64,000 bases of DNA from an uncultured Alphaproteobacteria bacterium (GCA_949288805.1 CASELL010000001.1:89027-153026), one strand, 5' to 3'; positions 1,882 through 40,297 are shown, numbered from the stretch's first letter. Numbers and translations are program-made. The notes: generated from the letters alone by a model not told the origin.

Positions 1882-2699
1882 TGCTAAATAAATTATTTGT
1901 TTACGATATAGAAACAATACCAGATACCGATGTTTTATATAACTTAACCGGTAGCGAAACAGTAGATGTTATCGAAAAAAGAAAAGAATTAGAAGAATAT
2001 AGTTCCTTAATATCAAATGGAAATCCTTTTCCTAGACAGCTTTTCCATAAAGTAATATCGGTTAGTATTTTGATTGCAGATATTAAACATGTTGATGGTT
2101 ATGAATATTATAATATTGAAAAAATAGGAACGATATCTTCGATAAATAATACAGAAAAAGAAATAGTTGATAAGTTTTTTAAATATATATCGAATCATAT
2201 ACCAAGACTTGTTGATTATAATGGCAAAACATTTGACTTGCCAGTTATGAAATATAGAGCTATGAAATACAATATTAGCATTGAAAATCTTTTTAAGTCT
2301 GGCGATAAGTGGAATAATTATAATCAAAAATATTCTCTTGATTGGCATTGTGATTTATTGGATGCCCTCTCTGATTTTGGTTCTTCTGCTAGATGTAAAA
2401 TGAATGAAGTTTGTGCTATTTTGGGAATACCAGGGAAAATTGGGATAGATGGTTCAAAAGTTGCTACTATGTATGATAATGGATTGTTAAAAGATATTGA
2501 TAATTATTGTGAAACTGATGTCTTAAATACATATTTAATTTATTTAAATTATGCGCTTTTAACTGGAAAAATAAATAATGATGGCTTCTTGTCAATGAAT
2601 AACGATCTAATAAACTATATGAAAGAGGAAAACTTGCCTCATTTTCTTGAATTCTTGGAGGAGTGGAAAAATGTTGATTCTCGTGGTTTGGGGTTTTAG
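1881..2699 (+). CDS. Predicted 3'-5' exonuclease, PolB-exonuclease-like (RNase H-like superfamily)
   Basis: N-terminal FVYDIETIPD (Exo I DxE), later YNGKTFDLPV and NYCETDVLNTY (Exo III-like YxxxD). ATG overlaps the upstream TAA (TAATG). Confidence 0.7.
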   Translation: MLNKLFVYDIETIPDTDVLYNLTGSETVDVIEKRKELEEYSSLISNGNPFPRQLFHKVISVSILIADIKHVDGYEYYNIEKIGTISSINNTEKEIVDKFFKYISNHIPRLVDYNGKTFDLPVMKYRAMKYNISIENLFKSGDKWNNYNQKYSLDWHCDLLDALSDFGSSARCKMNEVCAILGIPGKIGIDGSKVATMYDNGLLKDIDNYCETDVLNTYLIYLNYALLTGKINNDGFLSMNNDLINYMKEENLPHFLEFLEEWKNVDSRGLGF

Positions 2700-2709
2700 A
2701 AAAAATATT

Positions 2710-3339
2710 TTATTTTATTAACAAATATCTAAATAGGTTGTTTTTAGATTTACTATTAACACTAGCAAAATCTTTCCATTCTAGATTATAATTTTTTTCA
2801 ATGTGTAAATTATAAAAATTTTTGCCATATTTTTTCTCAATATCACTTATTATATCATCAAATACAATATCGCCACTAACTATTTTCTCTTGCCACAATG
2901 GAATTATCGACAAAATTGTATTTCTTCTATGGTTACATTTCCAATATTTATAATCATTGGTAATAAATAAAACATAAGCCTTACAATTTAATTTATTAGA
3001 TAATCTTTCCATTCTTTCTATATTAGAATATATTTTATGGCAAGTAATAATTTCTGCTCCATGATTTTTAAATATACATTGTTTAGTTTCTAATTCTGCT
3101 GTTTTGTATTCAAATTCAATAAAATATTTATCTGTATTGTATTCAAAATATAAATCTATATAATTTTTACCGTTTAGAAAATCATATTTTGGATATCTTG
3201 CTATTATTTTAGAAATACCATTAATGTTTAATAATTCTTCTTTAATTCTATATTCTAGGTCTTTTTTATTTTTTATAATATTGTTATTAAAAGATTCTTT
3301 TAATTTCTCTATTAATATATTTATTATATCCTTTTCCAT
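2710..3339 (-). CDS. Hypothetical protein, last gene of the RM-like operon; possible PD-(D/E)xK nuclease fold
   Basis: 209-aa ORF 58 nt downstream of res on the same strand. The segment NYIDLYFEYNTDKYFIEFEYK can be read as D...ExK. No family recognised, so the function is inference only. Confidence 0.45.
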   Translation of the reverse strand: MEKDIINILIEKLKESFNNNIIKNKKDLEYRIKEELLNINGISKIIARYPKYDFLNGKNYIDLYFEYNTDKYFIEFEYKTAELETKQCIFKNHGAEIITCHKIYSNIERMERLSNKLNCKAYVLFITNDYKYWKCNHRRNTILSIIPLWQEKIVSGDIVFDDIISDIEKKYGKNFYNLHIEKNYNLEWKDFASVNSKSKNNLFRYLLIK

Positions 3340-3397
3340 AAATTATTTTTTATTTTTGATATAAATATAATATAATTTATTATAAAAATCAACCAAG

Positions 3398-6300
3398 CTA
3401 TTTCAAAATCTCATTTAACAACCCTTGATAATCTTTAACTACCTCAAATTTAATTTGATTATCACTTACTACTGCAAAATGTTTTTTGGCACAAGATATT
3501 TTGTTATACTCAATATTACGAAGATCAAGACTAGAAATACTACCCTTAGTTTCAGCTATAAAATATATATGTTTTACCTTATCTTTATCAAAAGCAATAG
3601 CCCAATCAGGATTATAATTACCAATAGGAGTTTTTATATAAAAACCACTAGGCAATTTTGTATAAACAACAACATTATCAGCCTCTTCAAGTTCTTTAGC
3701 AAATTCTCTCTCAATATTAGAATCATATAGTAAATAATCATAAATATTTTTTTTAGTTTCTATCATGTTATTATTTACTACACCTTTTAGATTATGATTA
3801 GTAAAGATTTCATTAGTATATTCTCCTTCTTCACCCTCAATTTTTTTATATTTAATATAATCAACTATTAAAGTTGCCTTTTGTTCATTTATAATTTTAG
3901 AAAGTTTATTTATAAAGCTTTCAGGATTAATTTTAAACATATTAAAGACTTCAGGCTTCAATTTTTTTAAAATATCAATAATATCTTTTCTTGTCAAACT
4001 AGTTTTATCAACTAATTCTCCAATTAAATCATATGTGTTTTTATTTTCTATATTAGTAGTTTTATGATATGTTTTTTTCACATTATTACTTTGTTCTTCT
4101 ATATTATCAATAACACCATCAGCAATTTGAATAATAGTATGTTGTATATTTATTGATCCATTTGCCACATTTACCACATTTCTTACCAATTCTTCACTAT
4201 CAAAATCAACAATATAAAAAGTTTTTTTATTTATTTTATTCCATAATTCTTTAAATTCTTTTTTTTCAAAATTTATTTTATTTAATGAAATTTCAGTAGC
4301 TTTTATATTATCATTAACAACTTCAATATTTCCATTTTTACATACTTTATCTAAAACATCAATAATTACATCTTTTACATCATCCAATTCTTCATCCAAA
4401 ACAAGTTTATTTTCCCTTAAATCTTCATAATATTTATCAGTTAATTTACCTTTTTCTATATAATCATTTCTAATTAAAGTTTCATAAATACATATAGCTT
4501 TATTTTGATCAATTACTTCTTCATTTCCATCTTTATTTGTAAATACTCTATTTAAAAATAAATTACTATCAATAGTCGTCAATCTATTTCTAATATCTTC
4601 TTTAAACTCTTCTTGTAATTGTTGACTAAAACTTTCATAACTTTCACTAGCAATAATTGTCAATTTATTAATTTTATGAACTTCATTTTCAGTAACAAAA
4701 GAAGAATCTATTCTATCACCATTTTGATTTACACAAAGCCTCAAACCTCTTCCTATTTCCTGCTTTTTCTTAATTGTCGCATCACTTTCTTTCAAAGTAC
4801 ATATTTGAAAAACATTAGGATTATCCCAACCTTCCTTTAAAGCAGAATGTGAAAAAATAAATCTAACATCATTAGAAAAACTCAACAACAACTCTTTATT
4901 TTTCATTATCAAATCATAACCACTTACATCTTCTTTACTATTAACTCCATCAATAAAATGTTTATTTTTTTTATCCTGCGAGAAATAACCTTCATGAGTT
5001 CTTTTTACATCAATTTTTGTTAAATAATCAAAATATTCTTTTTCACCAAACCTGGGTTGTAAGGACTCAACAATTTTATTATATTCTTCTTCAAACATTT
5101 TAGCATATTCACCATTACTACTTTCTTCATTATCATAAACTCTATATTTTGCTACTTCATCAATAAAAAATAAAGATAAAACTTTTATACCATATTTATA
5201 CAATTCTCTTTCTTTCTCAATATGACTAATAATAGTTTCCCTAATTTGTATTCTTCTTAATTCTTTAATACTATTTTCATTACCTATAATTTGTCCTATT
5301 CTTAATTCAATACCATTTAAAAACTCAATCTTATTTTCCCTAGCATCAATAGTTTTAACAATAAAATTATTTTTATATTCTTGTAAATTATTAGATATAA
5401 AAAAAATATCATCGCCTTCCTCTATTTTTTTAAAAACTTTTCTAACTCCATTACTACCAAAAAAGTTTATTTGAAGTCTTGCCATAGGGGGCACATCTTT
5501 TGACAATATAATATTTTCAAAATAAATATAACCATTAGTATTTGCTTGATTCAAAAAAGTAATACCTTTAACACCTATCTTTTTTACAAGTTTTTTATTA
5601 TAAGCATCAACCGAGTCCAAAGAATAAACAAGATTAAAATTTTCTTTCAATGTCGCAGAATATCTCAAAGTAAACAAAGGATTAAATTCTTTTAATTTTT
5701 GTTTTGTAGAATTACCTTCAACACTCTGTGGTTCGTCAATTATCAATATAGGCCTTGTAGCAGATATAACATCAATAGGTGCTCTTGATCTAAACTCATC
5801 TAATTTAGAATATATTCTTCTTCCATTTTCTCCTTTAGAATTAAAAGCCTGCATATTTATAATCATTACACTAATATCTACACTACTAGCAAAATCATCT
5901 ATTTTACTTAAATTAGCAGAATCATAAATAAAATATTTTATTCTTTTTCCATATTCTTCCAAAAAATGATCTTCTGTAATTTTAAACGTTTTATAAACTC
6001 CTTCTCTAATAGCAACACTAGGCACAACAACAATAAACTTAACCCACCCATACCTTTTATTTAATTCATACATTGTTTTAATATATGTATATGTTTTACC
6101 TGTTCCTGTTTCCATTTCAACACTAAAATTATAGCTACTAGTTTCATTTTTATTTTTAGTAATATAAAGATCTCTAGACACTTCCAGATATTGTTTATTT
6201 TGTATTTTTTGTATATTAGCAAGAATAGTATTTTCTTCTAAATTAATATCACCATTTCTATAAGCATCATTTTCAAGATCAAGATTACCTTCTATAAAAC

Positions 6301-6412
6301 CATTATCTTTTAAATATCTTAAAGTCCCAGATTTATTATTACCTTCAAATATATCACAAATAGCATTACTAGCATCTTCTTGAAACTTTTGATGTTTAAA
6401 TTTTAATTTCAT
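3398..6412 (-). CDS. res: Type III restriction enzyme Res subunit (SF2 helicase/ATPase plus C-terminal PD-(D/E)xK endonuclease)
   Basis: Motif I METGTGKTYTY, motif II LIIDEPQS, late helicase motifs SALKEGWDNPNVF and QEIGRGLRL. C-terminal nuclease motif NPDWAIAF...IYFIAETKG. Confidence 0.9.
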   Translation of the reverse strand: MKLKFKHQKFQEDASNAICDIFEGNNKSGTLRYLKDNGFIEGNLDLENDAYRNGDINLEENTILANIQKIQNKQYLEVSRDLYITKNKNETSSYNFSVEMETGTGKTYTYIKTMYELNKRYGWVKFIVVVPSVAIREGVYKTFKITEDHFLEEYGKRIKYFIYDSANLSKIDDFASSVDISVMIINMQAFNSKGENGRRIYSKLDEFRSRAPIDVISATRPILIIDEPQSVEGNSTKQKLKEFNPLFTLRYSATLKENFNLVYSLDSVDAYNKKLVKKIGVKGITFLNQANTNGYIYFENIILSKDVPPMARLQINFFGSNGVRKVFKKIEEGDDIFFISNNLQEYKNNFIVKTIDARENKIEFLNGIELRIGQIIGNENSIKELRRIQIRETIISHIEKERELYKYGIKVLSLFFIDEVAKYRVYDNEESSNGEYAKMFEEEYNKIVESLQPRFGEKEYFDYLTKIDVKRTHEGYFSQDKKNKHFIDGVNSKEDVSGYDLIMKNKELLLSFSNDVRFIFSHSALKEGWDNPNVFQICTLKESDATIKKKQEIGRGLRLCVNQNGDRIDSSFVTENEVHKINKLTIIASESYESFSQQLQEEFKEDIRNRLTTIDSNLFLNRVFTNKDGNEEVIDQNKAICIYETLIRNDYIEKGKLTDKYYEDLRENKLVLDEELDDVKDVIIDVLDKVCKNGNIEVVNDNIKATEISLNKINFEKKEFKELWNKINKKTFYIVDFDSEELVRNVVNVANGSINIQHTIIQIADGVIDNIEEQSNNVKKTYHKTTNIENKNTYDLIGELVDKTSLTRKDIIDILKKLKPEVFNMFKINPESFINKLSKIINEQKATLIVDYIKYKKIEGEEGEYTNEIFTNHNLKGVVNNNMIETKKNIYDYLLYDSNIEREFAKELEEADNVVVYTKLPSGFYIKTPIGNYNPDWAIAFDKDKVKHIYFIAETKGSISSLDLRNIEYNKISCAKKHFAVVSDNQIKFEVVKDYQGLLNEILK

Positions 6413-6422
6413 TCAATCCTCC

Positions 6423-8459
6423 TTACAATACCTTTATAGTGCAATTATTCATTTTAGATTTAATAATTTCATCGGCTGTAATTTTTTCAGCAGAATCAAC
6501 AAAACAACCATCCCTAAAAAATACTATTTCAGGCTTCAAATCTGCTATATATCTAATAACATTTTCATTTATATTTTTTTCAAAACAAGCAACCAAATTA
6601 TCAATTATATATATTTTACGATTATCAACAACTTCAATTTTATGTTCTATAGTCAATGGAAAACCATTTTCCAACAAACAAGAAAACAACAAATCTTCAT
6701 CTGTTCTATCTTGTTTAATATTAGAAACTAACCCATCTAACATTTCTTGAGTATAATTATTAGGTTCATAATAAACATCTTCCATATTGCTAGAATCAAC
6801 CCTAAATACTCTAAAACCAATATCTAGATCATTTTTACCTGTTGTTTCAACAATTTTATTGCCTGCTCTTCTAATTCTTTCTTTGCCTATTTCACAAATA
6901 TTTTTATAACCAGCTTTGAAAGCTTCACTATCTTCTTTACATTCTTCTTGTAATTGTACCATTATAAATTGTCTATTGCCACCATCTTCTGCATTTAAGT
7001 CCATCACTGCATGTGCTGTTGTGGCAGAGCCGGAGAAAAAGTCTAGGATTATGTCGTCGGGGGTGGTTGAAAGTTTGAGTAAATCATTTATTAAATAAGT
7101 AGATTTTGGATTATCAAAAACTTTTTTATTATTAAATAATAAATTTAATTCATTTGTTGCATTTGCATATTCAGTTTTATACAATATAGACTTACATGTT
7201 GTAGAAGCATATTCTAATAATAATTCATCCATTTCAGGTCTTTTTTTTTGTTTAATTCCATTATTATAAAAAATATCATTATTTTTTAATAGCTTATTAA
7301 AAGTTTCAAAACCGCTAGTCCATCTAACCTTTTCATTAAAAGAATTTATAGGTAAAATAAATTTAAATCCTTGTTTTTCATAAAAAGTTTTTAAATTTTC
7401 AATGTATGTATCATTAAATTGTTTTAAATTTTTATCATAAATTTTTTCAAATTCTTCTTTTGTTATTGAGTATAATTGATTATCTTTTAGTAAAATTGGA
7501 AAATACATATAAGGTCTTTTTTCTCTTTCTTTATCTTGTCCACTTTTTTGAAAAGTTATTTCATTGTAAAACCCAATATCATCTAAATATTTAAATTTAT
7601 TTTCAGTTTTTTTACCAAAAATATTTTCAGTTTTATTAAAACCATATTCTTTTATTTTTTCTTTATTTTTTGAATATATTAAAATTTTATGTCCGACTTC
7701 TGCTATAAAATTATCATTTTCTTTTCCTTTTAAATTATCTAAAATAAATAAAGAACTTATAAAATTTCTCTCTCCAAAAACTTCATCACATATTTTTTTT
7801 AAGTTTGCTTGTTCTCTATCGTCTATTGATATAAAAATTACACCATCATCTGTTAATAAATTTTTTGCTAATTTTAATCTAGAATATATCATTGAACACC
7901 AATCACTATGAAATCTAGGGTTAGTCTCTTTATTTTCTTTAAATTGTTTATTATCTTCTTCATCTCTATAATCAATTTCTTCTTTATATTCTTCATCATC
8001 AATAGTAAAATTATCATTATATGTAAAACTATCTTTACCGGTATTATAAGGCGGATCTATGTATATCATTTTTACTTTATTAAAATATGACTTTTGTAAT
8101 ATTTTTAACACATCGAGATTATCACCTTCAATATATAAATTTTTTGTACTATCCCAATTTTTACTTTCTTCTATACAAGGCCTTAAAGTTTTTGTAATTT
8201 TTTTATTTGCTTCTAATAAAGCCTCTTTTTTACCAACCCAAGTAAATTCATAACTTTCTACTTTATTATCTATAAGTTCATTTGATAATTCTTGTTTTAA
8301 TTTATTAAAATCAATTTTTCTAACTAGGTTGTTGTTTTCGTCAATGCTTTCTGTAAATACTTGAGGAAATAATTGTTCCATGATTTTAATATTATTATTA
8401 ACTATATCAATAGTTGTATTTTCTAATTTTTCAACTTTGAATAAATCATTTATTTTCAT
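6423..8459 (-). CDS. mod: Type III Mod-like N6-adenine (beta-class) DNA methyltransferase
   Basis: Motif IV MIYIDPPYNTG lies N-terminal to AdoMet motif I ILDFFSGSATTAHAV, which is the beta-class order typical of type III Mod. Ends 10 nt upstream of the res start. Confidence 0.9.
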   Translation of the reverse strand: MKINDLFKVEKLENTTIDIVNNNIKIMEQLFPQVFTESIDENNNLVRKIDFNKLKQELSNELIDNKVESYEFTWVGKKEALLEANKKITKTLRPCIEESKNWDSTKNLYIEGDNLDVLKILQKSYFNKVKMIYIDPPYNTGKDSFTYNDNFTIDDEEYKEEIDYRDEEDNKQFKENKETNPRFHSDWCSMIYSRLKLAKNLLTDDGVIFISIDDREQANLKKICDEVFGERNFISSLFILDNLKGKENDNFIAEVGHKILIYSKNKEKIKEYGFNKTENIFGKKTENKFKYLDDIGFYNEITFQKSGQDKEREKRPYMYFPILLKDNQLYSITKEEFEKIYDKNLKQFNDTYIENLKTFYEKQGFKFILPINSFNEKVRWTSGFETFNKLLKNNDIFYNNGIKQKKRPEMDELLLEYASTTCKSILYKTEYANATNELNLLFNNKKVFDNPKSTYLINDLLKLSTTPDDIILDFFSGSATTAHAVMDLNAEDGGNRQFIMVQLQEECKEDSEAFKAGYKNICEIGKERIRRAGNKIVETTGKNDLDIGFRVFRVDSSNMEDVYYEPNNYTQEMLDGLVSNIKQDRTDEDLLFSCLLENGFPLTIEHKIEVVDNRKIYIIDNLVACFEKNINENVIRYIADLKPEIVFFRDGCFVDSAEKITADEIIKSKMNNCTIKVL

Positions 8460-8468
8460 ATATTACCC

Positions 8469-9073
8469 TTATTTTAAAAGGCTTTTCAACCTTTTAATCT
8501 CTTGAGTTATTTCAAATTTTTTGTCTAGTTGTTTTTCATTTTTAGTCTTGTTTTCTAATACTTTTATTTGTTTAATAATTTTCTCTTGTTCTATATTGTT
8601 GATAATTTCTTCTGACAACTGTTTTTCTCCATTAAAATTATCAAGAGATATTTGATTAATAAAATTTCTAAAAATATTTTCAATTTTGTTGCCATCTATT
8701 GTTAATTTTATATCAGATAGCCAACAAGTATTAAATGTTTTTATTATAACATTATTTTCTTTGTAGGAAATATATAATTTATATCTCCCTTCATATTCTA
8801 ATATAAAAACTATAAAATATGGTATAGCTTTATCTATTGCTTCTAAAACTTTATTATCAAGATTAATATTTTTTAATTTTATGTTGAAAAATTGTATTTC
8901 TTGTTCTTCTTCTTTGATGTTTAAAGTTTTTGAACTTATAGAATTAGTCCATATTATTTTTTCTATATTATTAACAAACTCTTTTTTTAGTTGTGAGTTT
9001 TATTTGCTTTTTGATAAAATTTTTCTTTTGGTATAATTTTGTTTATTTCGGTTGATTCGGGTAAACTTAACAT
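8469..9073 (-). pseudogene. DUF4391-family gene interrupted by a -1/+2 frameshift near A-runs (not in the supplied ORF track)
   Basis: The minus-strand ATG at 9071-9073 overlaps the SNF2 stop (ATGTTAA). It reads MLSLPESTEINKIIPKEKFYQKANKTHN* with the stop at 8987-8989. A second frame is open from about 8997 to TAA at 8469-8471: NSQLKKEFVNNIEKIIWTNSISSKTLNIKEEEQEIQFFNIKLKNINLDNKVLEAIDKAIPYFIVFILEYEGRYKLYISYKENNVIIKTFNTCWLSDIKLTIDGNKIENIFRNFINQISL... That frame has no in-frame ATG/GTG/TTG near its 5' end. Both halves fit my recollection of DUF4391 (N-terminal LPxST..NK.IPK.KFY, central IPY.I.F.LE..G.Y). Confidence 0.7.
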
Positions 9074-12000
9074 AAATCCTCCTCAATTACAAAAAAACAA
9101 ATTAATTCAAAATCATTTAAACTTTTTAATTTATTTATAGTAGTACCACCAGAAGAAAACAAACTATCAACATCTTTTTTATCTTTTATTTCTACTATTG
9201 ATTCTATTGATTTTTCAAGTAGTTTACTATAAAAATCCATTTTCTTGCCATCATTAGTTTTTTCATTAAAAACTTTACATAATTTTTTATTTACATCTTT
9301 TCCACTACAATATAATCTTAATTTATCTAATAAATCTTTTGTTTTTAGATAATCATAAAATATTTCTCCATTGTTTTTTATGTAAATTAAATAATAAGGG
9401 TCTAAAATATTTTGATTGTTGCTTTCATTTTCACTTTTTAATAAATAAATAACTCCTGCGGGCATTTCTTCGTTTGCCTCTATTACTGTATTCATTCCAT
9501 TAGGAGTTTTTTCTATACTAGGATGTTTTTTAATATAATCTATTAATTCAAGTCTAAAATCATTAAAACCAAGATCCATTATTGATATATTATTATCTAT
9601 TTCTTCTAGATCTACAACTTCGTTTTTGATTTTTTCTAATTGTTTTTTTCTATATTCTAATTCAATTTCTTCTTCGTTTATATTATCGTCATTACTAACA
9701 CTAATTACACCGGCCATTTTATTTGTTAATTTATCTTTTAATTTTATATAATCGTCCAATTCTACTGGAGGCCAGAAATTAACCATTTGTATTACTTCAT
9801 TTTTACTGCCTATTCTGTCAATTCTACCAAATCGTTGTATTAATCGAACAGGGTTCCAATGTATATCATAATTTATTAAATAATCACAATCTTGTAAGTT
9901 TTGACCTTCACTAATACAATCAGTTGCTATTAAAATATCTATGTCTTCATTATCTTGTTGTAATAAATCTCTTTCTTTTGATATAGGAGAAAATTCAGTT
10001 AAAATTGAATTGATATCGTTATTAACTTTATTAGCATTAGTTTTTATAGTATTACCAGTTATTAGGGCAGTATTTAAATTAAAATTATCTTTTATGTAAT
10101 TTACTAAATTGTCATAAAGATATATAGCAGTATCACTAAATGCAGTAAAAATTATTATCTTTTTATTGTTTTTGTTTATTGGATTGTTTATTTTATTATT
10201 TATTGTTTCTTTTAATTTATGTAATTTATAATCTTTATCTTTATTTATTAAACTTGTGCTATTATATAAACTTTCTAAGATTTGTTTATCTTTTTCAAGA
10301 TTTGCTTGCCAACTATAACAATCTATATCAGCTAAATCTATTTCCATTTTATTATTAATAATAGTCATATTGTTTGAATCTTCATAATCAAGATCATTAA
10401 AATCTTCATTATTTAAACTATAATTATTAAATTGACTACTAAAAACATCTTTTGTTATACTAAAAGCATCTAGTTCTTCTTTTTTATTTAAAAAATCGTT
10501 TATTGTTTTTAATGTATAATCAATTTTCTTTATTATTGTTTGTAAAGTTTGATTAAAAGAAAAAACAGAACTTTCCATTCTTTTTAATAGATTAATTGAC
10601 ATTAATTTTACAAGGCCTTTCTCTCTATCGCTTTGTTTAATTTTGTCGTTTTCGTTTTTGTTGTATTTTTCAACTCTACTTGGTAATAAAAAACTTGTAG
10701 GATTATAAACGCATAAAGTTAAATCCATTAAATCTTGTATTATTTCGTTATAATTAATATCGTCTTGATTTATTGTTAAAGTTGGGCTTTCATTTATTGG
10801 TTTTAGCCTTTTTGGAAATCTACCTATATCGTCAATATTATAAAACTTTTCAATATTTTTTCTTGATCTTGATATAGTTACATCATCTAATAATTTAAAA
10901 AAATCTTCATCAAGGCTATTTATTAAATCTTGAGTAGTTCCATTTTTCTTTTTACTCCATTCATTAAATCTTTGTTGCGCTTGTTTTAAAACTTTATCTA
11001 TTCTATCGTTTCCTTCTTCGTCTTCGTAAGCTAATTTTAATTGGTTCTTTAAGTCAGTAAATCTATTATTTACTGGAGTAGCAGATAACATCAAAACTTT
11101 TGTTTTTACTCCTTCTTTTATTACTTTATTTAATAATATATTATATCTATTATATTTTAATTCGTTTTCTTCAGTTAAATAAGAAGAACCACCATTTCTA
11201 AAATTATGTGATTCATCAATTACTACTAGATCAAAATTGCTCCAATTTATTCTTGATAAATCTACTCCACTTTCAGATATTCCCTTTTTTCTCGTTAAAT
11301 CACTATGAAATAATACAGTATAATTAAATCTATCTCCCAAAAGTGGGTTGTTTTTGTAATTATGTTTGTAACTGTCCCAATTGTTATATAATTTTTTAGG
11401 GCATAAAACTAAAACATCTTTATTTCTATTTTCATAATATTTTATTACAGAAAGTGCTGTAAAAGTTTTACCAAGTCCAACACTATCAGCTAGAATACAA
11501 GCATTATACTTTTCTAATTTATTAATTATCGATAAAGAAGCAGTTTTTTGAAAATCATATAATTTATTCCATATTTTACTTTTTTTAAAACCTACTGCTT
11601 CATTTGGTAAAGTATCCTCATCAAGATTTTCTATATAATCTTTAAATAAATTATACAAAGTAAAAAAATATATAAATTCAGGAGAGTTTTCATTATATAT
11701 AGTTTCTATATTGTTTATTACTTCTTCTGTTACATCTTGTAATTTATCTTTATCATTCCAATTTTCATCAAATCTTTTTAATACCCTATCATTTTCAATT
11801 TTGCTAATACAATAATCAATATTACTATTTTCAACCCCTAGGCTCGTAGTTGTAAAATCAATAATTTGATTATATAGTATAGGCATTTTATCTTGATTTT
11901 GTATTATCATATAGGTAGACATATAATCTGGGTGTTTATTTGATTTAAAACGTGCCTTTGTTCTTATCCATTCTATACATTCTTTTGCTATTGCCTTTTG

Positions 12001-12294
12001 TTTTAATTCATTTCTTAATTTTACTTCGTACTTTGTCCCATAAATATTTCTTTCTCTTTCTAATCTAGGTATAAAAAATTCTCTTTTTTCTTTTGGAGTT
12101 TTTTCATTTAAAAAGGTAGGTGATGTAAAAATAAATCTAAAACTTTTAACTTTGTTTAACTCTTTTCTTAACTCTTGGTAGGCATATATTGAAAAACAAT
12201 TTGCACTCACAGAAATATTAGCTTTTTCCTTTATTTCTGAAGATAAATCGTCTTTTAATATTTTTGTTATATTATCAAAAGTTTCGTTTGACAT
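9067..12294 (-). CDS. SNF2/Rad54-family helicase-related protein, first gene of the RM-like operon
   Basis: Motif I ILADSVGLGKTFTA, motif II LVVIDESHNFRN, motif III MLSATPVNN, C-terminal lobe ATDCISEGQNLQDCDYLINYDIHWNPVRLIQRFGRIDRIGS. The roughly 240-aa N-terminal domain is unassigned. Confidence 0.9.
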   Translation of the reverse strand: MSNETFDNITKILKDDLSSEIKEKANISVSANCFSIYAYQELRKELNKVKSFRFIFTSPTFLNEKTPKEKREFFIPRLERERNIYGTKYEVKLRNELKQKAIAKECIEWIRTKARFKSNKHPDYMSTYMIIQNQDKMPILYNQIIDFTTTSLGVENSNIDYCISKIENDRVLKRFDENWNDKDKLQDVTEEVINNIETIYNENSPEFIYFFTLYNLFKDYIENLDEDTLPNEAVGFKKSKIWNKLYDFQKTASLSIINKLEKYNACILADSVGLGKTFTALSVIKYYENRNKDVLVLCPKKLYNNWDSYKHNYKNNPLLGDRFNYTVLFHSDLTRKKGISESGVDLSRINWSNFDLVVIDESHNFRNGGSSYLTEENELKYNRYNILLNKVIKEGVKTKVLMLSATPVNNRFTDLKNQLKLAYEDEEGNDRIDKVLKQAQQRFNEWSKKKNGTTQDLINSLDEDFFKLLDDVTISRSRKNIEKFYNIDDIGRFPKRLKPINESPTLTINQDDINYNEIIQDLMDLTLCVYNPTSFLLPSRVEKYNKNENDKIKQSDREKGLVKLMSINLLKRMESSVFSFNQTLQTIIKKIDYTLKTINDFLNKKEELDAFSITKDVFSSQFNNYSLNNEDFNDLDYEDSNNMTIINNKMEIDLADIDCYSWQANLEKDKQILESLYNSTSLINKDKDYKLHKLKETINNKINNPINKNNKKIIIFTAFSDTAIYLYDNLVNYIKDNFNLNTALITGNTIKTNANKVNNDINSILTEFSPISKERDLLQQDNEDIDILIATDCISEGQNLQDCDYLINYDIHWNPVRLIQRFGRIDRIGSKNEVIQMVNFWPPVELDDYIKLKDKLTNKMAGVISVSNDDNINEEEIELEYRKKQLEKIKNEVVDLEEIDNNISIMDLGFNDFRLELIDYIKKHPSIEKTPNGMNTVIEANEEMPAGVIYLLKSENESNNQNILDPYYLIYIKNNGEIFYDYLKTKDLLDKLRLYCSGKDVNKKLCKVFNEKTNDGKKMDFYSKLLEKSIESIVEIKDKKDVDSLFSSGGTTINKLKSLNDFELICFFVIEEDLC

Positions 12295-12321
12295 TTTTAT
12301 AAAAATAATAACTGATTAGAT

Positions 12322-12366
12322 TTTATAATTAAACTAATAATTGTCAATTAATAGTTTAATTATAAA
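12322..12366. repeat. 45-bp near-perfect AT-only palindrome centred on TTGTCAA/TTGACAA
   Basis: tttataattaaactaataattg t caattaatagtttaattataaa has 22-nt arms with one mismatch. It lies between the stop of the 1234-aa gene (12420) and the SNF2 start (12294). Confidence 0.6.
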
Positions 12367-12419
12367 TCTTTGGTTTATTAATAAACACCCCAGAACAAGC
12401 AAATTTTAATTAAGTAAAT

Positions 12420-15400
12420 TTATATTATTGGCTCTAAATCATAAGATTTATAAGAATCGATTTGATTTTCAATAAATTCTTTAACATTTTTATAAAAAAT
12501 TTCTTGATCCATATTTTTAATTATCGATTTATTCTCTAAAAATTTTTCAATTTCATTTTTTTTATTAATTAAATCATCTATTTTATTTTCAAAGCCCATA
12601 TAATCTAATAACATTTTATATAAATATCCACATTCAATAAGATTAGTAATTTTATTGCATTCTAAATTTTTATGATTTTTATATTTAATATTTTTATTGG
12701 CTTCTTTATAGTATTTTTTAATAACCATTAAAATAGTAACATCTGTAATGTCAAAATTATATAAAATAATGCCAATATATCTATATATTTCTTTTGTATC
12801 TTTATTATTTCTAACTAATTCAAATAAACCCTGAAACCATTCAAAATTTGGCTTAATATCTATTTTATTTAATATATCAAAATTTAATTTATCGTTGTTT
12901 TTTAAATATTCAATTACAAAATCATAATAAAATTTATAATCTTCTTGAAATTTCTTTTTTAACATTTCTGGAATAGTATTATCTTTTTTTATAAAAGAAT
13001 ACATAGATTTTTCTATATCTATAATATCATTAATATTTTCTTCACAAAATTTTTCATTACTATATAATTTTTCAAAAAGACTTTCTAAATAATAACTAAA
13101 CATATCATCTCTAAATATTTTATCATTATTGAAATTTGTACATTCTTTTAATACTTTAAAAATTAAATCTATATTATTTACATGTTCATGATTTATTAAA
13201 CAAAGTTCAACATATTTTTTTTTATTATATTTTTCTGTATTATTTAAATATATATTAAAAATTTTATAATCTTCAATATAAAAAAATGAACAATTTTCCC
13301 AATAATACTTTTCATTATTTTTAATAATTTTTTTTACTTCATCATCAAATGTTTTATATGATAAAACTTTTTCAATAAACAATACATTTTTATCTAAAAT
13401 ATCAAAAGCTTTATTAAATATATTTTCTTTATCTAAATAATTTAAAAAAATAAATAATTCATGATATTTTTCTTTTCCAAATAATTGTTTAATTGTGTTT
13501 GTTTTATTAATTTTTGTTTTAGCTAATATTTTAAATAAATATTTTTCATTTATTTTTTCATATAATTCTAAAAATTTATTTATATCGTTATCATAATCTC
13601 TTAAAAATTTATCTAATTCATTAATTGTCTTTAATTCTAGATCTTTATCTTTATAAAACTTATAATGATTAATATTACTAAAATATATTACATATTTTTC
13701 AAATTTATCTATATTTATTTTATTACAAATTTTTTCTAATTTTTTTATATTATCATTATCTTTTCTATATTCTAAATATTTTATATTTTCTTTAAATATT
13801 TTTGTTAATTTATTTTTAGATTCGTTATCAAATTTATTAAAATCAATATCGTTTAATAAAGATATATATTTTTCAATAATATCTTTATCTTCCAATAAAT
13901 TAATATTATTACAAAATTTAACAGGTTCTTTTTTTAGGAAATTAAAATATTTTTCTAAAAAATATTGTTTAATACTATTATTTAAAGTTAGTTTTTTAGG
14001 ATATAATTCATTATTTGCTCTCCTTATAAAAATGACAACATTTTTTGCATTTAAAACTTCAAATATAATATTTTTAAACAACTCTTTATCTTTATATTCT
14101 TCTAAAATTTCTCGTAATTCAAAACTATTTAGTATATTTTTATTATCAATCATAAATATTGTTTTTATAAGGTATTCAAAATATTCATATATATTTTTAT
14201 TATAAAATAAATATAATAATTCTTCCAATACACGATCATCATAATTTTTATATTTATACAATATGTATTCAAATATCTCTATAATATCTTTTATATTATT
14301 AATTTCATTTTCTTTGATCATACAATCAATTTTTGTCAAAAACTGCGGAATATCAATCAAAGCTAAGTTAATTAATAATTCAAAATTATTTTTATTAATA
14401 AATTTCTCTATTAATTTATTAAATAATTGCTCAAACCAAACATATTTATAATTATATTTTTTATATAACATATTAAATATATTAAAAACACCAGTAATTA
14501 AATAGTTTGAATATTTATTGTCCTCTTGTTGTAATACTTCATTTAATAAAAAACTTTCTATTTTATCTAAAATAGATTCTATTTCTTTTTCATCAAAATT
14601 ATAGCATTGTATAAAATTAGAAACATAATAAACTTTACAATAATTATTTTCTCTTTCTAATATTAAATTATTTTCTTTTAACTCTTTTATAGTTTTATTA
14701 AATTTATCTTTTATAAATTGTTGTTCATAATTACCATTACCCCATCTATAAAAAGGTAAAATATTTAAAAACAAATCTTTTTGATCTATTTTAAAATTAT
14801 TTATTTTTAATAAACTTTGATGTAAATATTTTAAATTTGTATCACAATCATTAATTAAATCAATATAATTAATAATATTAAATTTGTTTTTAAAATAATA
14901 TAAAACACCTTCTTGTGTTATATTTTCTAGATATATAGTATTATAACTATTAAGAAAATTATTTTTAAAGTCATTACCAATAGGAATTATAATTTTTGTT
15001 TTTTTAGATAAAATAGACATAATTTCATAATTGGGATTTTTATCTATAATATATGGTACTATAATACTATTAATATAAGAATATTTAGATATTTCTAATA
15101 GTGTTTCATTTGTAGTAATTATTTGACTTTTAAAATAAATATTATAGTTATTATATTTTTTTAGATATGATATCAAAAACAACAAAGATTCTTCTTGAGA
15201 ATTTGATTTTATATATAAAATATCGCATTCTTTAAGTTTTTTATCAATATCTTCTTTTTCATATTTTCTTGATAATATTAATTCTTCATTCAAAGGTATT
15301 TTTGTTGAATTTTTCCAAGTTTCAAAAAATTTATCAAACTCATCATAACCATCAATTTTTTGATTACATAAATTTATTTTTAACCAGTTTTCAGTAGACT

Positions 15401-16124
15401 TTGACATTATTAATAAACTATTTAAATCTTGTTTATCAATAATTTTAACATCATAAAAAAAATTCTTTTTTTTATATAAGTCAATTAATTTATTTTTTTT
15501 AGTTTCTTCTGTGTTTTGTTTAGTAATAAAGCAAAAAGTTTTATTTTTGTTTTCTTCATTTTTTAATCTTTTGTTTATATCTAATTCAAATTTTTTGCCC
15601 CAATCTTCTTCTATACCAAATTCAAAAATTATTTCTTTATTACCTATACCAAATTTTGTATCAAAATTAAATTTAGCATAACCATCTGAACCTGACAAAT
15701 AAACTCCATCTTTAATAGGTATTCTAATTGAATCATTATTTCCATATATATCAACAATTAATCTGAGAATAAATTCAGCGAAAGTTTCTCCATTAGAAAT
15801 AATAGAAATATAATCTTTTTTTACAATCATAAGATTTTCATTTTTTAAAAAATTTTTTAATTCTGTTTTTGTAAGATTAAAATCTTTACAAGTATCTTCA
15901 ATTCCAAAATTATTGTATGAATTAATAATATTCCATTTTTCTTCATTACTTCTATCTTCAATTTTTACTTTAAAATTATTTTCTTTAGAAATTTTAATTA
16001 AAGTTTTTTGAGATATATTAAAATACTCTGCTGTTTCTTTTAAAGAATGTGTTTTTCTATATTCTTTAATTAAATTAATAGTTTTTAAATCTTTAATTAC
16101 AACTCTTTTTTTTCTTTCTACCAT
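12420..16124 (-). CDS. Giant orphan protein (1234 aa): N-terminal helix-turn-helix module(s), possible Mrr-like nuclease-type segment, long helical-repeat body
   Basis: Uninterrupted 3.7-kb ORF with a GAGGT SD 7 nt upstream. HTH-like SLKETAEYFNISQKTLIKISKEN and a second GIEDTCKDFNLTKTELKNFLKN. The segment FAEFILRLIVDIYG...LSGSDGYAKF...EIIFEFGIEEDWGKK resembles restriction-endonuclease-like N-domains only loosely. No Walker A found. Confidence 0.55.
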   Translation of the reverse strand: MVERKKRVVIKDLKTINLIKEYRKTHSLKETAEYFNISQKTLIKISKENNFKVKIEDRSNEEKWNIINSYNNFGIEDTCKDFNLTKTELKNFLKNENLMIVKKDYISIISNGETFAEFILRLIVDIYGNNDSIRIPIKDGVYLSGSDGYAKFNFDTKFGIGNKEIIFEFGIEEDWGKKFELDINKRLKNEENKNKTFCFITKQNTEETKKNKLIDLYKKKNFFYDVKIIDKQDLNSLLIMSKSTENWLKINLCNQKIDGYDEFDKFFETWKNSTKIPLNEELILSRKYEKEDIDKKLKECDILYIKSNSQEESLLFLISYLKKYNNYNIYFKSQIITTNETLLEISKYSYINSIIVPYIIDKNPNYEIMSILSKKTKIIIPIGNDFKNNFLNSYNTIYLENITQEGVLYYFKNKFNIINYIDLINDCDTNLKYLHQSLLKINNFKIDQKDLFLNILPFYRWGNGNYEQQFIKDKFNKTIKELKENNLILERENNYCKVYYVSNFIQCYNFDEKEIESILDKIESFLLNEVLQQEDNKYSNYLITGVFNIFNMLYKKYNYKYVWFEQLFNKLIEKFINKNNFELLINLALIDIPQFLTKIDCMIKENEINNIKDIIEIFEYILYKYKNYDDRVLEELLYLFYNKNIYEYFEYLIKTIFMIDNKNILNSFELREILEEYKDKELFKNIIFEVLNAKNVVIFIRRANNELYPKKLTLNNSIKQYFLEKYFNFLKKEPVKFCNNINLLEDKDIIEKYISLLNDIDFNKFDNESKNKLTKIFKENIKYLEYRKDNDNIKKLEKICNKINIDKFEKYVIYFSNINHYKFYKDKDLELKTINELDKFLRDYDNDINKFLELYEKINEKYLFKILAKTKINKTNTIKQLFGKEKYHELFIFLNYLDKENIFNKAFDILDKNVLFIEKVLSYKTFDDEVKKIIKNNEKYYWENCSFFYIEDYKIFNIYLNNTEKYNKKKYVELCLINHEHVNNIDLIFKVLKECTNFNNDKIFRDDMFSYYLESLFEKLYSNEKFCEENINDIIDIEKSMYSFIKKDNTIPEMLKKKFQEDYKFYYDFVIEYLKNNDKLNFDILNKIDIKPNFEWFQGLFELVRNNKDTKEIYRYIGIILYNFDITDVTILMVIKKYYKEANKNIKYKNHKNLECNKITNLIECGYLYKMLLDYMGFENKIDDLINKKNEIEKFLENKSIIKNMDQEIFYKNVKEFIENQIDSYKSYDLEPII

Positions 16125-16303: not shown

Positions 16304-16422
16304 ATATTAAATATTTATTTATTATTGTAAATATAATAATAATTTTTTTATTTGTCAAGTATTTTTTATTAAATTAGTAAACTTTTTAAACAAAATTATA
16401 AAATAAATACAATTTTTAACAA

Positions 16423-40288: not shown

Positions 40289-40297
40289 AACTAACTC

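What the first reader, a model, noticed from the sequence alone, without database searches (positions are those of the whole stretch)
2710..12294. Five-gene SNF2 / DUF4391 / Mod / Res / small-nuclease-like operon: an expanded type III-like R-M module
A canonical type III system is mod plus res. Here both are embedded in one tightly coupled transcription unit. The DUF4391 ATG overlaps the SNF2 stop, the gap from DUF4391 to mod is 9 nt, the gap from mod to res is 10 nt, and the gap from res to the 209-aa gene is 58 nt. The unit therefore contains two separate SF2 motors: the SNF2 protein and the Res helicase. It may also contain two nuclease-type modules: the Res C-terminal PDW...ETK motif, and the IDLY...EFEYK segment of the 209-aa protein. 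I recall the SNF2-DUF4391-methylase-helicase neighbourhood recurring in genome annotations, but I know of no mechanistic work on the roles of DUF4391 or the extra SNF2 motor.
Basis: partly seen in the sequence, partly recalled or inferred. Interest (0 to 1): 0.7.

Follow-up and report, generated by a model that had tools for sequence, protein, structure and literature searches.

The report
SNF2–DUF4391 type III restriction cassette
This stretch carries a widespread but unstudied four-gene form of type III restriction-modification, in which the methylase and nuclease-helicase always travel with a second (SNF2) motor protein and a small protein of unknown fold. In this genome the small gene is broken by a one-base deletion, and the fifth gene is only a local hitch-hiker.

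Summary
The genes and spacings are as described, all on the minus strand. Two corrections apply. DUF4391 is not an open frame here: a single T is missing at codon 25, while 91-99% identical relatives have an intact 201-aa gene. The 209-aa gene is not part of the unit.

In 75 loci from many phyla, the order SNF2 → DUF4391 → Mod → Res held wherever the contig allowed: 59/59 upstream and 54/55 downstream. None of these loci has a homologue of the 209-aa protein.

SNF2, DUF4391 and Res co-vary tightly (r 0.94-0.97). Mod does not (about 0.45), because its recognition domain is swapped. SNF2 and DUF4391 overlap by 4 nt in most loci.

The SNF2 N-terminus has a phospholipase-D fold (best match SauUSI) but no conserved catalytic histidine. 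A confident DUF4391 model (pLDDT 89) has no structural neighbour in PDB or BFVD.

The cassette is also present in E. coli CFT073, and the SNF2 domain is encoded on 113 plasmids. I found no mechanistic literature. Sister strains of the window each carry a different lesion, including a clean deletion of SNF2+DUF4391 that leaves Mod-Res intact.

Verdict: a real, conserved, uncharacterised variant of type III R-M. Its accessory motor pair appears dispensable for keeping Mod-Res.

The parts
9067..12294 (-). SNF2-family ATPase, 1075 aa. It has three regions: an N-terminal PLD-fold domain, an SNF2 motor core, and a conserved C-terminal domain of unknown fold.
   Evidence: Pfam SNF2-rel_dom, Helicase_C and ResIII. 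Full-length match to PADLOC PDLC01075 'HKD+Snf2', E 7.7e-118. NCBIfam DrmD scores 161.6 bits, below the cutoff of 610. Motifs GLGKT273, DESH360, SATP404 and QRFGRIDR820 are intact. It is the most conserved component across loci.
11560..12294 (-). N-terminal PLD-fold domain of the SNF2 protein (aa 1-245), probably catalytically dead.
   Evidence: AF2 model pLDDT 78.7. Foldseek against PDB: SauUSI 7clg E 4e-5, then PssA, NucT, FAM83, PLDs and TDP1. There is no invariant His in alignments of 13 and 37 homologues. The strand at the HKD position reads K113..F116-[K/R]-S-N119. Sequence searches found no Pfam or PDB hit.
9070..9759 (-). C-terminal domain of the SNF2 protein (aa ~846-1075), conserved, fold unknown.
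   Evidence: 64% mean column identity across phyla. A profile search found no meaningful PDB match.
8469..9073 (-). DUF4391 gene, frameshifted in this window. One T is missing between 9000 and 9001, at codon 25.
   Evidence: Intact 201-aa alleles P0002 (99%), P0003 and P0004 exist. The repaired protein hits PF14335 at 134 bits. AF2 model pLDDT 89, pTM 0.80: an alpha/beta domain plus a C-terminal helical hairpin. No structural neighbour in PDB or BFVD.
6423..8459 (-). Mod, a type III N6-adenine methyltransferase of 678 aa, intact.
   Evidence: N6_N4_Mtase 3.9e-32. PADLOC MTase_III PDLC03634 1.3e-195. EcoP15I Mod 4zcf_A 3.8e-61. DPPY at aa 135 and FFSGSA at aa 474.
7020..7751 (-). Variable target-recognition region of Mod (aa ~237-480). 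It contains the A9 run (T9 on the plus strand) at 7241-7249.
   Evidence: This region is replaced by an unrelated sequence in sister strain L096, with near-identical flanks. It carries the two frameshifts of L001/L002, one of which is A9 to A8. The run is one of only 4 homopolymer runs of 9 in the 64-kb window.
3398..6412 (-). Res, the type III restriction subunit of 1004 aa: an SF2 ATPase plus a C-terminal PD-ExK nuclease. Intact.
   Evidence: ResIII and RE_endonuc. PADLOC REase_III PDLC03647 1.2e-287. EcoP15I Res 4zcf_C 3.3e-69, with the nuclease motif aligned. GTGKT103, DEPQ226, PDWA935 and ETKG954.
2710..3339 (-). 209-aa gene. It is adjacent but not part of the conserved cassette. It belongs to an uncurated family with a PD-(D/E)xK-like motif pattern.
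   Evidence: No homologue in the 75 loci. The indexed search found only itself, while full HMMER found 271 distant relatives. Family motifs are E25, D62 and E75-x-K77; the window protein has E77. Members give weak hits to HSDR_N_2, NERD, AHJR, TnsA, PDDEXK_9 and DpnII. Relatives lie in varied contexts.
12320..12347 (-). Promoter-like site (TTGACA-16-TAAAAT, 11/12) in the 125-nt gap upstream of SNF2.
   Evidence: Consensus match only; the total count in the region is not above shuffled controls.
3379..3406 (-). Promoter-like site (TTGAAA-16-TATAAT, 11/12) at the res/p209 junction.
   Evidence: Consensus match only. It suggests p209 can be transcribed on its own.

Best explanation
The locus belongs to a conserved, horizontally mobile four-gene variant of type III restriction-modification: [PLD-fold + SNF2 ATPase] - [DUF4391] - [Mod] - [Res].

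Shown: Mod and Res are orthodox type III subunits. They have EcoP15I-like methylase motifs, SF2 ATPase motifs and a PD-ExK nuclease.

Inferred from the EcoP15I model: Mod reads an asymmetric site and methylates one strand. ATP-switched Res-Mod complexes slide and cut unmethylated foreign DNA.

Shown: in this lineage these two subunits are always accompanied by an SNF2-family motor whose N-terminal PLD domain has lost the catalytic histidine. They are also accompanied by DUF4391, a small basic protein with an alpha/beta domain, a coiled hairpin and no recognisable fold relative. The DUF4391 gene is translationally coupled to SNF2.

Inferred: SNF2 and DUF4391 form a sub-complex, a dsDNA translocase plus an adaptor. 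This sub-complex works with Res, because the three co-evolve as one block. It modulates restriction rather than providing it. For example, it might clear or load DNA for the sliding enzyme, widen the range of cleavable site arrangements, or control self-damage. Recognition and cleavage stay with Mod-Res.

In this particular genome DUF4391 is frameshifted, so the accessory arm is probably disabled while Mod, Res and SNF2 remain open. The 209-aa gene is a separate, lineage-specific add-on at the 3' end. This is typical of the other defence genes that lodge in and around the cassette.
For: Family assignments.

Conservation: 75 loci from Alpha-, Gamma- and Deltaproteobacteria, Clostridia, Erysipelotrichaceae, Bacteroidales, Actinobacteria, Planctomycetes, Verrucomicrobia, Spirochaetes, Synergistetes, Saccharibacteria and one archaeal MAG. 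All genes are on one strand. SNF2 is present in 59/59 loci with room upstream, and Mod+Res in 54/55 with room downstream.

Plasmids: SNF2 homologues at only 27-31% identity still keep the four-gene order.

Coupling: the SNF2 to DUF4391 distance has a median of -4 nt, with overlap in 56/72 loci. Insertions occur almost only at the DUF4391/Mod junction (16/63) and the Mod/Res junction (11/59).

Co-evolution: pairwise similarity among SNF2, DUF4391 and Res gives r 0.94-0.97. Mod against the others gives 0.43-0.48.

Structure: PLD fold without a conserved His. DUF4391 model pLDDT 89 with no neighbour. DUF4391 pI is mostly 8.4-9.7.

Defence context: a WYL regulator lies upstream in 27 loci. TIR, KAP, GmrSD and SLFN genes are inserted, and GIY-YIG lies downstream.

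Accessory status: sister strain L096/L097 has a 3.3-kb deletion that removes SNF2 and DUF4391, yet keeps Mod (with a new recognition domain), Res and p209 open.

Analogy: in EcoR22I, mod+res alone gave restriction although an SNF2-like helicase gene lies next to them.
Against: No experiment exists on any member, so the physical SNF2-DUF4391-Res interaction is inferred only from gene order and co-variation. Co-variation of co-inherited genes does not prove contact.

The intact ORFs in the L096 deletion strain do not prove that Mod-Res is active there.

EcoR22I is not a member of this family. Its Mod is about 1034 aa and its Res about 1126 aa, from the coordinates. It is therefore only an analogy.

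Strong conservation of SNF2, the most conserved of the four, sits oddly with a merely optional role.

The single-base deletion in the window could be an assembly error.
Confidence: 0.68

Rival explanations
1. Five-gene operon: the 209-aa protein is an integral second nuclease of the system.
For: It is on the same strand, 58 nt after res. It is retained next to res in all sister strains. Its family has a PD-(D/E)xK-like motif pattern. One relative sits at the 3' end of a type I R-M operon.
Against: There is no homologue in any of 75 cassettes from other taxa. One of the two best minus-strand promoter-like sites (both 11/12) lies in the 58-nt gap. Relatives occur between purE-like genes, or next to AAA_23 or AAA_14 ATPases. 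The window protein has Glu at the family's near-invariant Lys77. Other cassettes carry different genes at that position, for example GIY-YIG/DUF4357.
Confidence: 0.07
2. Two independent defence systems that merely sit side by side: an SNF2-DUF4391 system and an ordinary type III R-M.
For: Defence genes cluster. Other defence genes insert between DUF4391 and Mod. The SNF2+DUF4391 pair is lost as a block in L096 with Mod-Res retained.
Against: Co-occurrence is near 100% in fixed order across phyla and on plasmids. Gaps are 9-10 nt where there is no insertion. SNF2/DUF4391 similarity tracks Res similarity at r 0.94-0.97, so there is no shuffling of partners. No DUF4391 locus without Mod/Res was found.
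Confidence: 0.1
3. A DISARM-like system. SNF2 is a DrmD equivalent, and the cassette acts like class 1 DISARM, with Res taking the role of the DrmA/B/C effector. It would block unmethylated DNA by a mechanism not limited to site-specific cleavage.
For: The best named NCBIfam hit of SNF2, and the best named-system PADLOC hit after the 'C3a139 HKD+Snf2' candidate model, is DrmD. Class 1 DISARM also combines an SNF2 helicase, an adenine methylase, a DEAD helicase, a DUF protein and a PLD domain. B. cereus plasmids carry drmA-drmB-SNF2-DUF4391-mod-res as one tight operon.
Against: The DrmD score is far below the cutoff, 161.6 against 610. There is no DrmA or DrmB in the window or in any of the 75 loci. 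The methylase is an N6_N4_Mtase type III Mod, not DrmMI. Res aligns with EcoP15I Res, nuclease included.
Confidence: 0.12
4. In this genome the locus is simply a decaying relic with no current function. This is compatible with the main explanation at family level.
For: DUF4391 is frameshifted here. Mod is doubly frameshifted in L001/L002. SNF2-DUF4391 is deleted in L096. A neighbouring KAP NTPase is split by a 5-nt deletion. In-frame deletion fusions are common in metagenomes.
Against: SNF2 (1075 aa), Mod (678 aa) and Res (1004 aa) are full-length open frames with all catalytic motifs. L004, 99.56% identical, has DUF4391 intact. The Mod recognition domain is being exchanged between strains, which implies ongoing selection on specificity.
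Confidence: 0.3

Closest known systems
Classical type III R-M (EcoP15I / EcoP1I; structure 4ZCF)
   Same: Mod matches at 3.8e-61 and Res at 3.3e-69. Shared features are the DPPY/FxGxG methylase motifs, the SF2 ATPase, a C-terminal PD...ExK nuclease, mod preceding res by about 10 nt, and a swappable recognition domain in Mod.
   Different: Classical systems have two genes. Here two further genes, PLD-SNF2 and DUF4391, are obligatorily linked upstream and co-evolve with Res. Res scores below NCBIfam's type III equivalog cutoff, 360 against 564. A 2025 review of R-M biology does not contain the term SNF2.
Class 1 DISARM (DrmD SNF2 helicase, DrmMI, DrmA, DrmB/DUF1998, DrmC/PLD)
   Same: Both combine an SNF2-like motor, an adenine methylase, a second SF2 helicase, a small DUF protein and a PLD-fold module. 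DrmD is the nearest named relative of the SNF2 protein. In B. cereus the cassette is fused behind drmA-drmB.
   Different: There is no DrmA, DrmB or separate DrmC. The DrmD model score is well below cutoff. The methylase and the nuclease-helicase are bona fide type III Mod and Res.
EcoR22I of E. coli ECOR22 (Silas et al., bioRxiv 10.1101/2023.04.06.535777)
   Same: A type III mod/res pair is encoded next to an SNF2-like, DrmD-related helicase in a P4-type hotspot. Mod+res alone restrict lambda and trigger Ocr-dependent death. Transposon suppressors map only to mod and res.
   Different: It is a different subfamily: Mod about 1034 aa and Res about 1126 aa from the supplement coordinates, against about 650 and 1000 here. 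DUF4391 is not mentioned. Membership was not established.
SauUSI (type IV, ATP-dependent; 7CLG)
   Same: It is the best structural match to the SNF2 N-terminal domain. It has the same overall layout, a PLD-fold domain followed by an SF2 motor and a C-terminal domain.
   Different: The SauUSI PLD domain is the active nuclease and the enzyme works alone on modified DNA. Here the HKD histidine is not conserved and the protein is tied to a Mod/Res pair.
Hma system (HmaA SNF2-nuclease, HmaB methylase, HmaC ATPase)
   Same: It combines an SNF2 motor and a methylase as a defence unit, and other defence genes insert inside the operon.
   Different: The proteins are unrelated (DUF3883, DUF1156, DUF499). 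HmaA matches only the helicase core.

Membership tests
Type III restriction-modification | Mod subunit: N6-adenine methyltransferase with DPPY (motif IV) before the recognition domain and FxGxG (motif I) after it. | tested here: met
   N6_N4_Mtase 3.9e-32. DPPY at aa 135 and FFSGSA at aa 474. EcoP15I Mod 3.8e-61. PADLOC MTase_III 1.3e-195.
Type III restriction-modification | Res subunit: SF2 ATPase motifs plus a C-terminal PD-(D/E)xK nuclease. | tested here: met
   ResIII and RE_endonuc. GTGKT103, DEPQ226, PDWA935 and ETKG954. Aligns with EcoP15I Res including the nuclease. PADLOC REase_III 1.2e-287.
Type III restriction-modification | Two-gene system, mod followed by res, with no further obligatory subunit. 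| tested here: not met
   Mod precedes res by 10 nt. However, SNF2 and DUF4391 accompany them in 59/59 and 54/55 testable loci.
Type III restriction-modification | One-strand methylation of an asymmetric site. Cleavage needs two inversely oriented unmethylated sites and ATP. | not testable with these tools
   Needs methylome and cleavage assays.
NCBIfam NF012027 (type III R-M endonuclease equivalog) | Score at or above the curated cutoff of 564 bits. | tested here: not met
   360.1 bits. This is a distinct Res subfamily.
PF14335 (DUF4391) | Score above the Pfam gathering threshold of 29.9 bits. | tested here: met
   134.2 bits, E 8.9e-39, for the frame-repaired protein. The gene as it stands in the window is interrupted.
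DISARM class 1 | Core triplet DrmA, DrmB (DUF1998) and DrmC (PLD). | tested here: not met
   No such hits in the window. No DrmA/DrmB homologue in 75 loci. They are present only in the B. cereus plasmid variant.
DISARM class 1 | DrmD SNF2 helicase at equivalog level (NF038317, cutoff 610). | tested here: not met
   161.6 bits.
PLD/HKD nuclease superfamily (SNF2 N-terminal domain) | PLD fold. | tested here: met
   Foldseek: SauUSI E 4e-5 with probability 1.0, then PssA, NucT, PLD and TDP1. Model pLDDT is 78.7, with a disordered loop at 64-86.
PLD/HKD nuclease superfamily (SNF2 N-terminal domain) | Catalytic HxK(x)4D motif with an invariant His. | tested here: not met
   No invariant or near-invariant His in alignments A3 (13 sequences) and A7 (37 sequences). 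The corresponding strand reads x-F-[K/R]-S-N. This rests on alignment only; no residue-level superposition was available.
SNF2-family ATPase | Helicase motifs I, II (DExH), III and VI. | tested here: met
   GLGKT273, DESH360, SATP404 and QRFGRIDR820. Pfam SNF2-rel_dom and Helicase_C.
PD-(D/E)xK nuclease superfamily (209-aa protein) | Core motif D...(D/E)xK on the conserved strands. | tested here: inconclusive
   The family of 50 aligned relatives has D62 and E75-x-K77 at 90% conservation or more. The window protein has D62, E75, E77 and K79, so the canonical Lys is replaced. Ten of 50 members give weak hits to PD-(D/E)xK-clan Pfam families. There is no PDB sequence hit, and hhalign against the Res nuclease domain was negative.
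PD-(D/E)xK nuclease superfamily (209-aa protein) | Alpha-beta-beta-beta-alpha-beta restriction-endonuclease fold. | not tested

The most novel reading that the evidence does not exclude
SNF2 and DUF4391 turn a type III enzyme into a mechanistically new, two-motor restriction machine. DUF4391, a new fold, would tether an SNF2 dsDNA translocase with a dead-PLD DNA clamp to Res. The complex would then no longer depend on passive one-dimensional sliding between two inverted sites. This would close the orientation loophole that lets phages such as T7 escape type III enzymes. Alternatively, the complex could sense and override anti-restriction proteins. Either way it would define a distinct R-M type with its own rules.
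Probability: 0.25. Interest if true: 0.8.

Novelty: new variant of a known kind. Interest (0 to 1): 0.55.

Why it matters
Type III R-M is regarded as a solved two-subunit system. This work shows that a large, phylogenetically broad branch of it never travels without a second motor protein and a small protein of unknown fold. More than 1000 clustered homologues of the SNF2 N-terminal/DUF4391 query profile were found. The SNF2 domain is encoded on 113 plasmids, including plasmids of Listeria, Enterococcus, Lactococcus, Bacillus, Acinetobacter and E. coli. About 64 of 5426 complete E. coli genomes carry the cassette, among them CFT073 and ABU 83972.

Annotation pipelines and PADLOC's models call only the Mod/Res half; PADLOC has no DUF4391 model. 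The branch is therefore counted as ordinary type III.

Because members exist in tractable E. coli strains, the question of why a sliding restriction enzyme needs an SNF2 motor is directly testable. The answer could also bear on DISARM, whose DrmD helicase is the nearest named relative and is equally unexplained.

The sister-strain series of the window is a ready-made natural genetic dissection of the locus. It comprises an intact copy, a DUF4391 frameshift, a Mod frameshift, and an SNF2-DUF4391 deletion with a Mod specificity swap.

Tried and rejected
- **Programmed frameshift or phase variation in DUF4391.** Rejected. The missing base is a T in ATATAAA. It is not in a repeat, there is no X XXY YYZ site, and relatives have the plain intact frame.
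- **Sequence searches of the SNF2 N-terminal domain, the SNF2 C-terminal domain and DUF4391 profiles against Pfam and PDB.** Nothing meaningful: cullin and CAP-repeat noise.
- **Structure prediction with a deeper DUF4391 alignment built from the fetched loci.** The model was still confident.
- **Chimeric DUF4391 + SNF2-N profile, to get both families from the last homologue search.** It worked for SNF2 but added few new DUF4391 sequences.
- **hhalign of the p209 family against the Res nuclease domain.** No similarity, probability 0.4%. Uninformative.
- **Filing the locus under Hma, Zorya ZorD, BREX BrxH or Dpd.** These hit only the generic helicase core. Rejected.
- **Treating EcoR22I as a member of this family.** Rejected after reading the gene coordinates in the supplement: Mod about 1034 aa, Res about 1126 aa.
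- **Terminator scan.** None found in 2400-12700. The total promoter count is not above shuffles, so only the two top sites are mentioned.
- **Literature on a CFT073 type III methylome.** The papers found deal with the type I system only.
- **Host identification.** No direct test was possible. Only context genes were available.

Full report
**1. What is in the window.**
The minus strand of 2710-12294 holds four long ORFs: a 209-aa ORF (2710-3339), res (3398-6412, 1004 aa), mod (6423-8459, 678 aa) and an SNF2-family gene (9067-12294, 1075 aa). Between mod and SNF2 there is no ORF of 60 aa or more. Translating the three frames shows a DUF4391 gene that starts at the ATG at 9073, inside the last codons of SNF2. 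It stops after 28 codons and continues in another frame to the TAA at 8469. G+C is 21-26% over the unit.

**2. Family assignments.**
- Res carries ResIII and RE_endonuc, and matches PADLOC REase_III end to end (E 1e-287).
- Mod is an N6_N4_Mtase and matches MTase_III (E 1e-195).
- The frame-repaired DUF4391 scores 134 bits on PF14335.
- The SNF2 protein carries SNF2-rel_dom and Helicase_C. It matches PADLOC model PDLC01075 ('HKD+Snf2') over its whole length (E 8e-118). DrmD is the best named relative but scores far below NCBIfam's cutoff.
- Res and Mod align with EcoP15I Res and Mod, including the PD...ETK nuclease.
- All ATPase, methylase and nuclease motifs are intact.
- The 209-aa protein and the 1234-aa ORF upstream (12420-16124) hit nothing in Pfam, PADLOC, NCBIfam or PHROGs.

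**3. The frameshift.**
Near-identical metagenome contigs encode intact 201-aa DUF4391 proteins (P0002 99%, P0003 95%, P0004 91%). The window reads GCAAATAAAACTCAC where all four relatives read GCAAATATAAACTCAC, so one T is missing between window 9000 and 9001. It is the only gap in 7270 aligned bases against L004, which is 99.56% identical. The site is not a repeat tract and has no slippery heptamer. Downstream re-initiation could give only the last 49 residues. A neighbouring KAP NTPase gene is split by a 5-nt deletion relative to a sister strain. Real gene decay is therefore plausible, but an assembly error cannot be excluded.

**4. The neighbourhood survey.**
A pattern scan of one genome per species, using a DUF4391 alignment, returned 75 loci from many bacterial phyla and one archaeal MAG. 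I called ORFs and searched them with the window proteins.
- Every locus shows SNF2 → DUF4391 → Mod → Res on one strand.
- SNF2 is present in 59/59 loci with room upstream.
- Mod+Res are present in 54/55 loci with room downstream. The exception is a deletion derivative.
- Neither the 209-aa protein nor the 1234-aa protein has a homologue in any of these loci.
- The SNF2 stop and the DUF4391 start overlap in 56 of 72 loci (median -4).
- The DUF4391/Mod and Mod/Res junctions have a median gap of 10 nt. They are interrupted by insertions in 16/63 and 11/59 loci.
- The inserted genes are other defence modules: TIR plus a trypsin-like protease, a KAP NTPase, a UvrD-type helicase plus GmrSD, and SLFN/AlbA_2.
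- A WYL-domain regulator sits directly upstream of SNF2 in 27 loci. A GIY-YIG/DUF4357 gene follows res in 8.

**5. Co-variation.**
Over 44 complete loci (946 pairs), normalised similarity is correlated at r = 0.94-0.97 among SNF2, DUF4391 and Res. Any of these against Mod gives only 0.43-0.48. SNF2 is the most conserved component. The three are therefore inherited and constrained as a block, while Mod diversifies. This is the behaviour expected of a specificity subunit.

**6. Wider distribution.**
- The last homologue search, run with a combined DUF4391 + SNF2 N-terminal (aa 1-125) profile, found 1033 clustered proteins; most of the 120 listed are SNF2 N-terminal matches.
- 113 plasmid records encode the SNF2 N-terminal domain. 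They include Listeria (20), Enterococcus (18), Bacillus (15), Escherichia (14) and Acinetobacter (11).
- The most divergent plasmid copies, at 27-31% identity (Shewanella, L. plantarum), keep the four-gene order.
- In E. coli, a plasmid form occurs in 10 complete genomes.
- A chromosomal form sits at the leuX island of CFT073, ABU 83972 and others. It reads WYL/YafY regulator, SNF2, DUF4391, Mod, Res, and occurs in 54 of 5426 genomes.
- PGAP names the four genes 'helicase-related protein', 'DUF4391 domain-containing protein', 'site-specific DNA-methyltransferase' and 'type III restriction-modification system endonuclease'.
- In B. cereus plasmids the cassette follows drmA-drmB in one tight operon. 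No DrmA or DrmB is present in the 75 loci.

**7. Structures.**
- *SNF2 N-terminal domain.* It has no sequence-level match. Its AF2 model (pLDDT 78.7) matches PLD-superfamily structures: SauUSI at E 4e-5, then PssA, NucT, FAM83, PLDs and TDP1. Alignments of 13 and 37 homologues contain no invariant histidine. The strand where HxK would lie reads x-F-[K/R]-S-N. The domain is most likely a non-catalytic PLD fold.
- *DUF4391.* It gave a confident model (pLDDT 89, pTM 0.80): an alpha/beta domain with six strands followed by a helical hairpin at residues 153-200. Foldseek found nothing significant in PDB (best E 0.15) or BFVD (best E 0.06). A profile search of PDB sequences was also empty. The family is mostly basic, with pI 8.4-9.7, so it is not a DNA mimic.
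- *SNF2 C-terminal domain.* These 230 residues are conserved and also unmatched.

**8. The 209-aa protein.**
The indexed search found only itself. Exhaustive HMMER found 271 distant relatives of about 200-220 aa. Their alignment shows an E...D...ExK pattern (E25, D62, E75, K77). The window protein has Glu at position 77. Ten of 50 members give weak hits to PD-(D/E)xK-clan Pfam families. Relatives lie next to SMC-like ATPases, between purE-like genes, beside an AAA_14-DUF4143 gene, and once at the end of a type I R-M operon. One of the two best minus-strand promoter-like sites (both 11/12) in the scanned region lies in the 58-nt gap before the gene. I read it as a small mobile nuclease-like gene that lodges in defence islands, not as a subunit.

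**9. A natural dissection in sister strains.**
At the same chromosomal site, flanked by the same OmpA, DsbA, ExoD and RimM genes, four states occur:
- L004 has SNF2, DUF4391 and Mod intact.
- The window has the DUF4391 frameshift.
- L001 and L002 have Mod broken by a 2-nt deletion plus an A9-to-A8 contraction inside the recognition region.
- L096 and L097 come from two samples. A 3.3-kb deletion between window 12015 and 8710, with a 9-nt overlap at the junction, fuses SNF2 residues 1-92 to the DUF4391 C-terminus. Mod, Res and p209 stay open. Mod carries an unrelated recognition domain between near-identical ends.

Similar in-frame fusions of the SNF2 N-terminus to DUF4391, Mod or Res C-termini occur in other metagenomes. 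That list was enriched for them by the chimeric query.

**10. Literature.**
- 'DUF4391' occurs in two papers of the library. Neither is about this system.
- A 2025 review of R-M biology does not contain the term SNF2.
- The nearest report is EcoR22I. Its mod and res genes lie next to an SNF2-like, DrmD-related helicase. Mod+res alone give restriction and Ocr-triggered death. Its gene sizes show that it belongs to a different subfamily.
- Class 1 DISARM has a comparable parts list.

**11. Interpretation.**
- *Shown:* an orthodox type III Mod/Res pair is embedded in a four-gene unit that is conserved, co-inherited and mobile. SNF2 and DUF4391 are translationally coupled. The SNF2 protein carries a PLD fold without the catalytic His. 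DUF4391 has no recognisable fold relative. Mod-Res open frames can persist after loss of the other two genes.
- *Inferred:* SNF2-DUF4391 is an accessory translocase-adaptor sub-complex acting with Res. The window copy has lost that arm. p209 is a bystander.
- *Unknown:* what the second motor contributes.

This is a new variant of a known kind. It is of moderate interest and readily testable in E. coli.

Noticed in passing
window 12420-16124 (-): A 1234-aa ORF with 13-15% G+C lies 125 nt upstream of SNF2. It has no hit in Pfam, PADLOC, NCBIfam or PHROGs. It is conserved in sister strains (1236 aa in L096) but absent from all 75 other cassettes.
   Followed up: partly
window 17839-19237 (-): A KAP-family NTPase is split into 279-aa and 205-aa ORFs by a 5-nt deletion, relative to the single 467-aa gene of sister strain L096. 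A second KAP NTPase (19260-20783) and an AAA_14-DUF4143 ATPase (16423-17787) lie alongside. The region looks like a decaying defence island.
   Followed up: partly
window 34661-50539 (-): Two giant TrbL/VirB6-domain proteins (1875 and 1285 aa), a VirB4/TrbE ATPase (801 aa) and a GTA-type tail protein (GTA_TIM, Phage-tail_3, Rcc01698_C; 1212 aa). With about 21% G+C, this suggests a host-associated alphaproteobacterium with a Rickettsiales-like type IV secretion system. The host was not identified directly.
   Followed up: no
L096 9001-9513 and L097; proteins P0005, P0160-P0164, P0172, P0240, P0252: There are recurrent in-frame deletion fusions of the SNF2 N-terminus to the C-terminus of DUF4391, Mod or Res, in several unrelated metagenome lineages. 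In L096 the junction has a 9-nt overlap between the flanks. The list is enriched by the chimeric query used.
   Followed up: partly
L096 9523-11451 versus window 7020-7751: The Mod recognition domain (aa ~237-480) is replaced by an unrelated sequence between near-identical N- and C-terminal parts. This is an allelic specificity swap like those of phase-variable mod genes in Haemophilus and Neisseria.
   Followed up: partly
window 7241-7249: An A9 run in the coding sense of mod is one of only four homopolymer runs of 9 in the 64-kb window. It is contracted to A8 in L001/L002. It may be a slippage hotspot, but the evidence is weak.
   Followed up: partly
L092 (B. cereus plasmid NZ_AP022904.1) 2241-15983: drmA, drmB (DUF1998), SNF2, DUF4391, mod and res form one tightly spaced six-gene operon. 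This is a DISARM/type III hybrid arrangement. The same SNF2 occurs on 15 Bacillus plasmid records.
   Followed up: partly
L011 1780-3458; L016 13896-16307; L062 10655-15205; L048 12650-14317: The DUF4391/Mod and Mod/Res junctions act as insertion hotspots for other defence genes: TIR plus a trypsin-like protease, a KAP NTPase, a UvrD-type helicase plus GmrSD, and SLFN/AlbA_2 with HATPase_c_4.
   Followed up: partly
L089 (E. coli CFT073) 6561-17126; L080 (plasmid NZ_CP101235.1) 3254-12300: The cassette is present in well-studied uropathogenic and asymptomatic-bacteriuria E. coli strains (CFT073, ABU 83972) next to a degraded P4-type integrase at tRNA-Leu. It is also present on about 110-kb IncFIB plasmids. 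Some E. coli variants have extra genes inserted (ATP-dependent nuclease/DUF2130, an ATP-binding protein).
   Followed up: partly
phage records MT836075.1 and MT836122.1: Two unannotated 13-kb 'Bacteriophage sp.' contigs from human faeces encode DUF4391 homologues at 35% and 28% identity. Whether they are true phage genomes or fragments of mobile elements was not checked.
   Followed up: no
L095 (L. cremoris pJM1D) 2102-5167: On this dairy plasmid the SNF2 gene of the cassette is interrupted by an IS712 insertion, while DUF4391, mod and res remain annotated as intact.
   Followed up: no
window 26140-27684 (-): A protein combining an inactive transglutaminase domain with a 7-TM domain (Transglut_i_TM + 7TM_transglut). 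It is unrelated to the finding.
   Followed up: no
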